A stretch of 64,000 nt of DNA from Candidatus Nomurabacteria bacterium (GCA_963832025.1 CAWHSF010000003.1:207665-271664); one strand, 5' to 3'. Shown: positions 28,761-28,836, counted from the stretch's first letter. Numbers and translations: made by a program. The notes: generated by a model not told the origin, from the letters alone.

Positions 28761-28766
28761 GACTTG

Positions 28767-28836
28767 TCCCGTACTAAATTTTTGATTACGGGAATAATCA
28801 TTAAAAATTATTATTTAAAATTTTAGTACTGGGATG
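28767..28836 (+). repeat. intercistronic hairpin cassette, family G copy 2 (3' arm ends on uvrC ATG 28834)
   Basis: Left arm TCCCGTACTAAATTTTT (28767-28783). Proximal complement TACGGG (28787-28792). Right arm AAAATTTTAGTACTGGGA (28817-28834), followed by TG. Confidence 0.7.

What the first reader, a model, noticed from the sequence alone, without database searches (positions are those of the whole stretch)
28761..28836. Family G: intercistronic hairpin cassette whose 3' arm ends exactly on the downstream start codon (uvrA->uvrC)
Four same-strand gene junctions carry one architecture: dnaN->11021, uvrA->uvrC, 2532-gene->pilin gene, and ruvA->mutM. In each, 7-15 nt after the upstream stop there is a left arm TCCCGT(A/T)... 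A proximal short complement follows in 3 of the 4 copies, then an A/T-rich spacer. A distal complement follows whose last paired base is the A of the downstream ATG (...TAGTAC(C/T)GGGATG, ...CTAACGGGATG, ...CTAATGGGATG). None of the four downstream genes has an SD or a -10 box. Two mechanistic readings fit. (a) Translational coupling at a distance: the ribosome terminating on the upstream gene melts the left arm, which lies inside its footprint, and frees the sequestered AUG 60-80 nt away. The proximal complement would provide the alternative pairing. (b) The hairpin is an RNase processing signal that liberates a 5'-AUG leaderless cistron, matching the leaderless promoters seen elsewhere in the window. 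Either would be a modular, repeated gene-expression device.
Basis: partly seen in the sequence, partly recalled or inferred. Interest (0 to 1): 0.85.

Follow-up and report, generated by a model that had tools for sequence, protein, structure and literature searches.

The report
Mobile hairpin elements parked on start codons
The four "cassettes" are copies of a small mobile DNA hairpin element of uncultured Nomurabacteria-like bacteria. The element is almost always found inserted exactly at the start codon of a gene, where its RNA fold buries that start codon, a habit not described for any bacterial transposon in the sources I could search.

Summary
All four window junctions carry a TCCCGT…GGG|ATG hairpin (simulated windows: 0.015 expected). 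The same element occurs more than 120 times in metagenomes, and 118 of 125 pattern matches are followed directly by TG.

It is not an ancestral intercistronic signal. It is a 65-125-nt insertion, absent from the same junctions in close relatives (65 filled/empty comparisons).

- **Class 1** (window 3530-3607) is a classical MITE. It has perfect terminal inverted repeats, either orientation, and a target duplication ATGNR that contains the start codon.
- **Class 2** (window 10949, 28762, 31694) has a constant 5' ACYTG, a bulge or G·U beside GGGA, fixed orientation and no duplication. Its stem pairs with all three bases of AUG.

The host lineage is Shine-Dalgarno-poor and uses leaderless promoters and stop-start coupling. 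The "7-15 nt after the stop" spacing is therefore inherited from pre-existing tight junctions.

Best mechanism (inferred): the hairpin loops out the insert and masks the AUG. A ribosome arriving at the retained entry point (left ATG copy, upstream stop or mRNA 5' end) melts the closing helix.

The transposase and the basis of start-codon targeting are unknown. No Rfam family or paper describing it was found.

The parts
28762..28833 (+). Class 2 element (ACTAAA subfamily, type a) between the uvrA stop (28758-28760) and the uvrC ATG. It is a 72-nt clean insertion, ACTTG…CTGGG.
   Evidence: Sequence read. The orthologous empty site in L002 (91% identical UvrC N-terminus) reads AAAATAGG|ATGAAA, against AAAATAAG|ACTTG…GGG|ATGAAA in the window. 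It matches the metagenome consensus.
28767..28788 (+). 5' arm, TCCCGTACTAAATTTTTGATTA.
   Evidence: the repeat finder pair I13 and the minimum-free-energy fold.
28787..28793 (+). Proximal complement TACGGGA. It offers alternative pairing with the first 7 nt of the 5' arm.
   Evidence: Read. It is conserved in type a copies and enriched where the left neighbour is a promoter.
28812..28836 (+). 3' arm with a bulged T at 28830. Its last pairs cover the A, U and G of the uvrC start codon (28834-28836).
   Evidence: The fold pairs U28765·G28836, G28766·U28835 and U28767-A28834. Across 112 copies the pairing probability of A, U and G is 0.96, 0.92 and 0.60.
10949..11020 (+). Class 2 element (ACTAAA subfamily, type b, left unit ATTTA, no proximal complement) between the dnaN stop (10937-10939) and the ATG of the 85-aa ORF (11021).
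   Evidence: z = -4.5. The orthologous MIE(I/A)K gene carries the element in L083 and L169, and is empty in L013, L009, L133 and L034.
31626..31694 (-). Class 2 element (TTAGAA subfamily, left unit ACTTG, a G·U pair next to GGGA) between the ruvA stop (31700-31702) and the mutM ATG (31625-31623).
   Evidence: The sites are empty in L002, L003 and L004, where MutM is 86-89% identical.
3530..3607 (+). Class 1 element. It has a perfect 14-nt terminal inverted repeat, TCCCGTTAGAAGTT / AACTTCTAACGGGA, whose last A is the A of the start codon of the pilin-like gene.
   Evidence: the repeat finder pair I14, fold z = -4.5, and the class 1 features.
3525..3529 (+). Left copy of the near-exact target duplication (ATGAG, against ATGAA at 3607-3611). 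It lies 1 nt after the stop of ORF 3167-3523.
   Evidence: Fifteen of 23 non-ACTAAA copies (20 of them class 1) have an exact ATGN(N) duplication of 4-7 nt.

Best explanation
**What it is (shown).** These are copies of a lineage-specific family of miniature, non-coding foldback (MITE-like) mobile elements of Candidatus Nomurabacteria/Paceibacterota. Their right end lies directly against the start codon of a host gene.
- Class 1 copies are classical MITEs with perfect terminal inverted repeats and a duplication ATGNR of the first five bases of the gene.
- Class 2 copies, which include the reported uvrA->uvrC cassette, carry a fixed 5' ACYTG and a bulge or G·U beside GGGA. They have one orientation only and no duplication.

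**How it most likely works (inferred).** On the mRNA the element folds into a 14-25-bp hairpin. This loops out the inserted 65-125 nt and pairs with the AUG, so free ribosomes cannot start there.
- The host makes little use of Shine-Dalgarno sequences. It starts translation at 5'-terminal AUGs or by re-initiation a few nucleotides after an upstream stop.
- That original entry point is still there, 5-14 nt in front of the 5' arm. It is the left ATG copy in class 1, and the upstream stop codon or the transcript 5' end in class 2.
- A ribosome sitting there covers and melts the closing helix, which frees the AUG held next to it. Translation of the downstream gene is thus preserved but becomes conditional on the upstream ribosome.
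- Where there is no upstream ribosome (leaderless-promoter context), the proximal complement may hold the 5' arm during transcription and give a short open window.

**Confidence split.** I put about 0.9 on the identity as a mobile insertion at start codons, and about 0.4 on the ribosome-unmasking mechanism.
For: **Insertion and mobility**
- The cassette is absent before mutM in all but four of the 80 relatives' loci, L023, L035, L037 and L042, and before uvrC in all but L018 of the relatives whose uvrC start was found.
- 65 filled/empty orthologous comparisons show a clean insert 5' of ATG.
- Class 1 target duplication was verified against empty sites: L018 against L010 and L060, and L187 against L155 and L147.
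- Class 1 occurs in both orientations.

**Start-codon association**
- 118 of 125 matches to a pattern that contained no ATG are followed by TG.
- All 14 copies in the mutM-centred loci plus the window abut an ATG.
- The 141 downstream ORFs have a median length of 222 aa and fall into 96 unrelated gene clusters, with N-termini that read like those of MetK, S9, L13, SerS, DnaB and FtsA (assigned by eye, not run against a family library).

**Structure**
- Hairpin z-scores of -4.3 to -4.5 for three of the four window copies.
- Compensatory arm variants exist between subfamilies: ACTAAA/TTTAGT, TAGAAG/CTTCTA, ACGAAA/TTTCGT and TAGAGG/CCTCTA.
- The start codon is paired with probability 0.96, 0.92 and 0.60 for A, U and G.
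- The base before TCCCG is always a purine, which can pair with U+2: 112 of 112 in class 2 and 20 of 20 in class 1, against a 51% background.

**Host context**
- The window's genes mostly show TATAAT-N6-ATG or stop-start junctions and lack a Shine-Dalgarno sequence.
- In class 2, the upstream stop lies 0-9 nt before ACYTG in about 66 of 124 copies. A -10 box lies 5-9 nt before the A in 60 of 124.
- Type a, which has the proximal complement, is enriched behind promoters: 29:4 against 42:26, p = 0.01.
- Class 1 copies sit at the start codons of the gene upstream of atpB (no family match), atpF and atpA inside an ATP synthase operon, so expression across them must work.
Against: - There are no expression data of any kind. 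Every step after the fold is inference.
- The short ORF that begins at the left ATG (class 1) or at YTG (class 2) has no conserved length or stop position. Any coupling is therefore not through a defined leader peptide.
- CTG and TTG are poor leaderless start codons.
- 17 of 124 class 2 copies have neither a nearby stop nor a -10 box.
- Class 2 lacks a target duplication, so it fails a defining MITE feature, and its way of moving is unknown.
- No autonomous element with these inverted repeats was found in 2 Mb of held loci.
- Targeting to start codons rather than to any ATGNR site is unexplained.
- G·U exceeds A·C oppositions 59 to 15, but one inherited column dominates the count.
- The promoter/type a association is not corrected for relatedness.
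Confidence: 0.55

Rival explanations
1. Purely selfish MITE with no gating role. The element is tolerated at start codons because the AU-rich hairpin breathes, or is opened by helicases or S1-like factors. Initiation at the exposed AUG is independent of any upstream ribosome. The precise position reflects only the integration specificity of an unknown transposase.
For: - The hallmarks of a transposon are present: inverted repeats, target duplication, both orientations, and presence/absence polymorphism.
- The base of the class 2 stem is weak, with two G·U pairs, then U-A and three C-G pairs, then a bulge.
- The downstream genes show no functional coherence, with 96 clusters.
- One viral-contig copy is not at a start codon and is flanked by TTA.
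Against: - Class 2 has a fixed orientation and a highly conserved 68-nt sequence across many genomes and genes.
- It also has conserved asymmetric imperfections next to the AUG.
- These point to constraint beyond mere tolerance.
- A -19 kcal/mol hairpin that includes the AUG should depress initiation strongly in a genome that depends on unstructured start sites.
Confidence: 0.2
2. Processing signal. A double-strand-specific or hairpin-base-specific RNase, as RNase III acts on Correia elements, removes the element from the transcript. This regenerates a leaderless or near-leaderless 5'-(GGG)AUG mRNA, which 70S ribosomes translate as before the insertion.
For: - Leaderless genes dominate this genome, and the element sits exactly between the transcription start and the AUG.
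- The stems of 21-25 bp are long enough for RNase III.
- A conserved bulge lies 4 nt before the AUG on the 3' arm only.
- RNase III is reported to cleave Correia-element transcripts at their inverted repeats (review PMC10969869).
Against: - No RNase gene or cleavage data were examined.
- From general knowledge, RNase III cuts inside stems with 2-nt overhangs, not at the helix end, so an exact 5'-AUG is not expected.
- Cleavage in intercistronic copies, such as those in the atp operon, would uncouple and possibly destabilise essential polycistronic mRNAs.
Confidence: 0.12
3. Domesticated cis-regulatory RNA switch. Class 2 would be a global translational gate, such as a thermometer, a helicase- or protein-dependent element, or a kinetic folding switch. 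It would toggle between the proximal hairpin (AUG open) and the long hairpin (AUG closed). It would have been spread by transposition and retained by selection only when it abuts the AUG.
For: - Two mutually exclusive pairings are conserved in several subfamilies through different sequences: TACGGGR, CTAACG and AACGGG.
- Wobble pairs and a bulge at the AUG resemble RNA thermometers (general knowledge).
- The strict orientation and sequence conservation of class 2.
- Type a is enriched behind promoters.
Against: - Type b lacks the proximal complement altogether.
- No ligand-pocket-like conserved loop exists, because the loops differ between types.
- The regulated genes share no function.
- No Rfam family matches.
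Confidence: 0.1
4. DNA-level signal. The element would be a portable promoter, an operator for a DNA-binding protein, or a terminator.
For: - The spacer is AT-rich with -10-like hexamers. A few copies contain a perfect extended -10, GTGATATAAT (L105, L106, L112, L141, L150).
Against: - The consensus scans found no promoter in three cassettes, only chance-level partial matches in the fourth, and no terminator in any.
- Class 1 interiors occur in both orientations.
- What is conserved is the stem, not the loop.
- There is no T-run after the stem.
Confidence: 0.03

Closest known systems
Correia elements (Neisseria MITEs)
   Same: Both are about 100-bp non-coding elements with terminal inverted repeats. 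Both are co-transcribed with neighbouring genes and fold into hairpins. Insertion alters gene expression, and RNase III is reported to cut at the repeats (PMC10969869).
   Different: Correia elements duplicate TA and lie at variable distances from genes (general knowledge). Family G abuts the start codon to the nucleotide, duplicates ATGNR (class 1) or nothing (class 2), and pairs with the AUG.
Rickettsia palindromic elements (RPE)
   Same: Both are palindromic mobile repeats in a small genome, and both are tolerated at positions that keep the host gene functional (PMC10969869).
   Different: RPEs insert in frame inside ORFs and are translated. Family G stays outside the ORF at its first codon. 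A separate RPE-like in-frame family does exist in this window (uvrC 29195-29286).
Mycobacterial interspersed repetitive units (MIRU)
   Same: Both are short repeats located in intercistronic regions of operons in a way that preserves stop/start translational coupling (from my own knowledge of Supply et al. 1997; not checked here).
   Different: MIRUs are direct tandem repeats that carry small ORFs overlapping the flanking stop and start codons. They are not hairpins, have no inverted repeats and do not sequester the AUG.
Translational coupling by hairpin unmasking (for example the RNA phage MS2 coat-replicase long-range pairing)
   Same: The downstream start is closed by long-distance base pairing and is opened only when a ribosome translates or terminates over the complementary upstream segment (general knowledge).
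   Different: Those are single, gene-specific evolved structures. Here one portable unit delivers the same logic to about a hundred unrelated genes.
Site-directed retrotransposon Ty3 (integration at RNA polymerase III transcription start sites)
   Same: A mobile element integrates within a nucleotide or two of a gene-expression landmark rather than at a long DNA sequence (general knowledge).
   Different: Ty3 is a eukaryotic LTR retroelement tethered by TFIIIB. For Family G the landmark is the start codon, whether or not it is also a transcription start, and the enzyme is unknown.

Membership tests
MITE (miniature inverted-repeat transposable element) | Terminal inverted repeats | tested here: met
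   Class 1 has perfect repeats of 11-16 bp, TCCCGTTAGAA…TTCTAACGGGA. Class 2 has imperfect repeats with a 1-nt bulge or a G·T.
MITE | Target-site duplication flanking the element | tested here: inconclusive
   Met for class 1. Of the 23 non-ACTAAA copies (20 of them class 1), 15 have an exact ATGN(N) of 4-7 nt and 4 are near-exact. It was verified against empty sites. Not met for class 2, which includes the reported cassette at 28762-28833.
MITE | Small, non-coding, multi-copy and dispersed | tested here: met
   The elements are 65-125 nt with no conserved ORF.
MITE | Presence/absence polymorphism at orthologous sites | tested here: met
   65 filled/empty comparisons, plus mutM and uvrC in up to 80 relatives.
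MITE | A related autonomous insertion sequence with the same inverted repeats | tested here: inconclusive
   No repeat pair 0.14-4 kb apart enclosing a gene was found in about 2 Mb of held loci. No transposase domain was found in the 20 window ORFs annotated up to 36.5 kb or in L136. Whole genomes were not searched.
Cis-regulatory RNA (riboswitch / thermometer) | Conserved structure upstream of a functionally coherent gene set | tested here: not met
   The structure is conserved, but the downstream genes fall into 96 unrelated clusters. No Rfam family matches at the gathering score or at E of 1 or less.
Intrinsic terminator | GC-rich stem followed by a T-run | tested here: not met
   No terminator-like site in any of the four cassettes. 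The stems are AU-rich and are followed by ATG.
Sigma-70 promoter cassette | -35 and -10 hexamers with 16-18 nt spacing inside the element | tested here: not met
   No hits in three cassettes and only chance-level hits in the fourth.
REP/REPIN (RAYT-mobilised hairpin repeats) | GC-rich REP hairpins with a conserved 5' GTAG. They are extragenic, mostly 3' of genes, with a single-copy RAYT gene | not tested
   From reading the sequence, the stems are AU-rich, there is no GTAG, and the position is 5' of genes. The presence of a RAYT gene could not be examined.
Integron attC site | R''/R' boxes RYYYAAC…GTTRRRY with extrahelical bases | tested here: not met
   The termini read TCCCGT…ACGGGA, with no GTTRRRY. 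A bulged base is the only resemblance.

The most novel reading that the evidence does not exclude
A bacterial transposon family uses the translation start codon itself (A|TG, consensus ATGNR) as its integration landmark, whether the gene is leaderless or internal to an operon. A derived, orientation-fixed class has been co-opted as a portable translational gate. This gate makes roughly one gene in sixteen in some Nomurabacteria genomes depend on an upstream ribosome or on a co-transcriptional folding window. It would be the first start-codon-targeting mobile element, and a natural modular AUG-masking device.
Probability: 0.3. Interest if true: 0.85.

Novelty: new variant of a known kind. Interest (0 to 1): 0.72.

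Why it matters
If the reading holds, it shows a mobile element whose insertion site is defined by a gene-expression landmark, the first codon, rather than by a long DNA motif. It also shows a way such an insertion can be survivable. The target duplication or the fold keeps the old ribosome entry point next to the new, masked AUG.

This gives a direct handle on how Shine-Dalgarno-poor, leaderless-rich Candidate Phyla Radiation bacteria choose start codons, which is an open question.

It also offers a compact natural part, about 70 nt, for coupling or gating translation.

There is a practical consequence for annotation. Gene callers will mis-place starts or invent N-terminal extensions at these sites. 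Examples are the ORF that opens at 3565 in the window, and the in-frame fusion in L136.

Tried and rejected
1. **Conserved leader peptide.** ORFs from YTG (class 2) or from the left ATG (class 1) stop at scattered positions. About 12% of class 2 copies have no NTG at all. Rejected.
2. **Internal promoter or terminator.** Consensus scans of the four cassettes gave nothing above the shuffle expectation.
3. **Known RNA family.** Rfam at the gathering score on the window, and at E of 1 or less on three element-bearing loci, gave nothing.
4. **Pairing beyond the start codon.** Positions -3 to -6 against +4 to +7 pair at the chance level, so the helix ends at the AUG.
5. **Left A of ACYTG as the retained first base of the host start codon.** In L140 the left base is G while the empty orthologues start with ATG. 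The rodA-like empty site starts with GTG while the filled sites have A. Not supported.
6. **Autonomous parent element.** There are no distant inverted-repeat pairs enclosing a gene, and no transposase domains in the ORFs annotated.
7. **Phage carriage.** There were 0 ACTAAA-type hits and 1 TTAGAA-type hit in viral contigs. That one is not at a start codon.
8. **G·U versus A·C asymmetry as proof of RNA-level selection.** The count is 59 against 15, but one inherited column dominates it. Suggestive only.
9. **Within-genome homogeneity.** Two adjacent pairs are 95-98% identical in the loop, but two other same-contig pairs (70% and 82%) are close to the between-copy mean of 76%. Weak.
10. **The count of structure pairs.** I did not run it on alignment A2, because the class 2 bulge shifts the register. 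The compensatory variants were read from the alignment instead.
11. **Literature.** Four successful searches, one failed search and one review read found no description.

Full report
**1. What is in the window**

The sequence at 28761-28836 reads TAA-G-ACTTG-TCCCGTACTAAATTTTTGATTACGGGAATAATCATTAAAAATTATTATTTAAAATTTTAGTAC-T-GGG-ATG. The 5' arm is at 28767-28788 and the 3' arm at 28812-28834. They pair with one bulged T (28830). A short proximal complement, TACGGGA (28787-28793), can pair with the first seven bases of the 5' arm.

- 10954 to 11021, after dnaN.
- 3530 to 3607, before a gene with a type IV secretion pilin domain (PF18895).
- 31689 to 31625 on the minus strand, between ruvA and mutM.

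Pfam confirms the flanking genes, and it confirms the start codons for MutM (Fpg N-terminal domain from residue 1) and UvrC (GIY-YIG from residue 15). MutM begins MPELPEVE, the usual N-terminus of this family (from general knowledge).

The long hairpin is the minimum-free-energy fold of all four copies. Three have z-scores near -4.4, with 0 of 200 shuffles folding as well. The fourth has z = -1.85.

The hexamers TCCCGT and GGGATG are not enriched on their own. The composite is. It requires TCCCG, a stem of at least 13 pairs within 35-135 nt, and GGGA followed by TG. It occurs four times in the window, against a mean of 0.015 in 200 simulated windows.

**2. The organism and its way of starting genes**

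Eighty loci that encode MutM relatives all come from Candidatus Nomurabacteria / Paceibacterota metagenome-assembled genomes of the Candidate Phyla Radiation.

The window surrounds dnaA-dnaN and holds housekeeping genes.

I printed the 45 nt upstream of 56 gene starts. The dominant patterns are these:
- A -10 hexamer 6-8 nt before the ATG, which indicates leaderless transcripts. Examples are TATAAT-N6-ATG at 2532, 22458, 43866, 49392 and 53558.
- An ATG a few nucleotides after the preceding stop.

Shine-Dalgarno-like sequences are rare. So the lack of a Shine-Dalgarno sequence and of a -10 box at the four cassette genes is not special to them.

**3. The cassette is an insertion**

*mutM.* In the 80 mutM loci the gene is usually preceded by one of two things. 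One is the ruvA stop plus 0-15 nt. The other is a divergent leaderless promoter (…CATAGTATGATTGTACC|ATG). Only L023, L035, L037 and L042 carry the cassette.
- L011 reads TATAATTGTACC|ATGCC.
- L035 reads TATAATTATAGC|ACTTGTCCCGT…GTACCGGG|ATGCC.
- This is a 72-nt insert placed exactly between the promoter and the ATG.

*uvrC.* The uvrA-uvrC junction is uvrA stop plus about 0-12 nt plus ATG in most of the relatives whose uvrC start was found; a few have longer spacers or no uvrA upstream. Only the window and L018 are filled. The closest relative, L002, reads AAAATAGG|ATGAAA. The window reads AAAATAAG|ACTTG…CTGGG|ATGAAA.

*Systematic comparison.* A broader search produced 65 filled/empty pairs with the same result: a clean insert immediately 5' of the start codon.

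**4. How widespread, and how tied to start codons**

I scanned metagenome contigs with a pattern that contained both arms but not the ATG (TCCCGTACTAAA N30-60 TTTAGTA N1-3 GGGA).
- Of 125 matches, 118 are followed directly by TG.
- In the loci that were chosen through mutM rather than through the element, all 14 family members abut an ATG on one side.
- The 141 downstream ORFs have a median length of 222 aa and fall into 96 clusters.
- Several clusters have N-termini that read like those of RodA-like protein, FtsA, SerS, DnaB, DHFR, L13, S9, MetK and HPF (assigned by eye from the first residues, not run against a family library). MutM was confirmed by Pfam. All begin at plausible N-termini.

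**5. Two classes**

*Class 1.*
- Perfect terminal inverted repeats, TCCCGTTAGAA… or TCCCGWACGAAA… paired with …TTCTAACGGGA.
- Length 65-125 nt.
- The interior occurs in either orientation relative to the gene. The GGAAATC…GATTTCC sub-hairpin lies near the left end in L018 and L187, and near the right end in L114, L154, L158, L159 and L184.
- A direct duplication of the first bases of the gene flanks the element: ATGGA, ATGAA, ATGAG, ATGTA, ATGCAA or ATGCCAA. Of the 23 non-ACTAAA copies tabulated (20 class 1 and 3 class 2), 15 have an exact duplication and 4 a near-exact one.
- Empty orthologous sites confirm that this is a true target duplication. L018 reads TATAATTAACAA-ATGGA[element]ATGGACAAG, against L060 with TATAATTGCAGA-ATGGACAAA.
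- The base just before TCCCG is a purine in 20 of 20 copies. The background at that gene position is 51%.
- Window copy 3 (3530-3607, ATGAG/ATGAA) belongs to this class.
- In L136, three class 1 copies sit at the start codons of the gene upstream of atpB (no family match), atpF and atpA inside the ATP synthase operon.

*Class 2.* Window copies 1, 2 and 4 belong here.
- A near-constant five bases precede the arm: A in 108 of 112 copies, C in 100, Y, T in 107, G in 101. The minor variant is ATTTA, as in window copy 1.
- There is an imperfection next to GGGA on the 3' arm only, either a bulged U/C or a G·U.
- There is no target duplication.
- There is a single orientation.
- The loop comes in two types. 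Type a carries the proximal complement TACGGGR. Type b does not.
- The same orthologous junction can carry type a or type b (L113 against L117 and L118), or class 1 against class 2 (L136 against L124).

**6. Structure at the start codon**

In class 2 the conserved TG at -2/-1 forms U·G and G·U pairs with the UG of AUG, on top of U-A and three C-G pairs.
- Over 112 copies the predicted pairing probability of A, U and G is 0.96, 0.92 and 0.60.
- The mean fold energy is -19 kcal/mol.
- Positions further out pair only at the chance level, so the helix ends exactly at the start codon.

Between subfamilies the arms differ by compensatory double changes. This fits both an RNA helix and transposase-recognised inverted repeats.

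Non-Watson-Crick oppositions are G·U rather than A·C by 59 to 15. One inherited column dominates that count.

**7. Left-hand context**

In class 2 the preceding same-strand ORF ends 0-9 nt before the A of ACYTG in about 66 of 124 copies. A -10 hexamer ends 5-9 nt before that A in 60 of 124, and 30 of those also have a stop. Seventeen copies have neither.

The element has therefore been dropped into the two ordinary kinds of start context in this genome.

Type a is over-represented where only a promoter precedes: 29:4, against 42:26 after stops (Fisher p = 0.01). The test is not corrected for relatedness.

**8. What it is not**

- No sigma-70 promoter or intrinsic terminator was found in the cassettes.
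- No Rfam family matches.
- There is no conserved leader peptide.
- No autonomous parent element or transposase was found in the sequence held.
- The literature library gave no description of start-codon-associated repeats in these bacteria. A 2024 review of prokaryotic MITEs does not contain the phrase "start codon" at all.
- One TTAGAA-type copy in a viral contig lies in an intergenic region flanked by TTA. The association is therefore strong but not absolute.

**9. Mechanism**

*Shown:*
- The element is an insertion.
- It is placed to the nucleotide at the start codon.
- It folds so as to pair with the AUG.
- The pre-insertion ribosome entry point (5'-terminal ATG copy, upstream stop or transcript start) is retained a few nucleotides before the 5' arm.

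*Inferred:*
- A ribosome at that entry point covers roughly the next 10 nt (general knowledge of ribosome footprints). It therefore opens the closing pairs, which are exactly those that hold the AUG.
- The rest of the hairpin keeps the AUG nearby.

*Rivals:*
- A purely selfish element whose weak basal helix simply breathes.
- A domesticated two-state RNA switch.

*Unexplained:*
- Why integration, or retention, is confined to start codons, when ATGNR must by its length occur many times more often than start codons in each genome (not counted here).
- How class 2 moves without a duplication.

**10. Verdict**

The thing is best filed as a new variant of the MITE / palindromic-repeat kind. Its start-codon placement and AUG-masking fold appear undescribed in the sources I could search.

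Noticed in passing
window 29195-29286, 29614-29701 (uvrC) and 26509-26600 (uvrA); L008 12330-12480: Long inverted repeats of 22-25 nt, 95-100% complementary, lie inside coding regions and enclose a GC-rich core. The first uvrC insert is in frame. It is absent from L002 and L019, and present at the same site in L008. There the core CCCTTCYCCGAGTACGG..TGGG.CCCACAC is conserved but the arms differ and match their own flank. This looks like an RPE-like in-frame palindromic element that duplicates host flank in inverted orientation.
   Followed up: partly
window 20917-21022 (polA), 24733-24836 (uvrB), 57294-57363: Further long inverted repeats with loops of about 26-62 nt lie inside or next to genes. 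They may belong to the same in-gene family.
   Followed up: no
window 30612-30729: A 118-nt foldback lies between the convergent SpoU-methylase gene and mutM. Its 24-nt AT-rich arms each begin at the two stop codons and enclose a GC-rich core with its own hairpin. This shows that other palindromic elements in this genome are tolerated at gene ends, unlike Family G.
   Followed up: no
window 29800-29860 and 26060-26302: uvrC is split by an apparent +1 frameshift near 29808 (…EYRKFK | IRTQDNSNDTGALTEVLERRL). The UvrC RNase H domain is divided between ORFs 28834-29826 and 29855-30142. An 80-aa ORF also overlaps the 5' end of uvrA. These could be an assembly error, a pseudogene or programmed frameshifting.
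   Followed up: partly
window, many gene starts (for example 2532, 6687, 22458, 43866, 49392, 53558, 61294); L003-L062 upstream of mutM: A -10 hexamer lies 6-8 nt before the ATG at most operon-first genes, and there is almost no Shine-Dalgarno sequence. In relatives, divergent gene pairs have their two start codons only about 14 nt apart (CAT-N14-ATG). That implies overlapping leaderless promoters.
   Followed up: partly
window 61020-61100 and 61177-61257; hairpins 60936-60970 and 61093-61127: An 81-nt direct repeat contains a TATACT box followed by GTTCCCGTAGGGAAAGATATCCTACCGAGGGCACAAA. The first copy runs into a GGGCACAAAAATAAGC/GCATATTTTTGTGCCC hairpin, and the same hairpin follows tRNA-Arg. 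This may be a duplicated small-RNA gene or a promoter module. There is no Rfam match.
   Followed up: no
window 55850-56100: A 62-65% GC island sits in a 37% GC genome. It holds a 44-aa Cys-rich ORF on the minus strand (55906-56040, MNKRCLGASCANPNANVVCEGL…) next to a GC-rich hairpin (GGGGGTCCGCGGCGGACCCCC). It may be a horizontally acquired small peptide gene.
   Followed up: partly
window 45035-48967: A 1310-aa ORF contains internal repeats with a period of about 255 nt (inverted-repeat pairs I15-I17 recur at 47630, 47885 and 48386).
   Followed up: no
L136 8140-10822 (plus-strand coordinates): Three class 1 elements sit at the start codons of the gene upstream of atpB (no family match), atpF and atpA within one ATP synthase operon. 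In one of them the left ATG copy reads in frame through the element into the gene, which would add about 27 residues.
   Followed up: partly
L202 3126-3204 (viral contig IMGVR_UViG_3300031952_000413): This was the only Family G-like copy found in viral contigs. It lies in an intergenic region, is not at a start codon, and is flanked by TTA on both sides.
   Followed up: partly
L092, L096 and L122 (the same locus in three samples): An 84-nt ACTAAA-type element with perfect, unbulged inverted repeats is not adjacent to a gene start on either side. It may be the still-mobile ancestor form of class 2.
   Followed up: no
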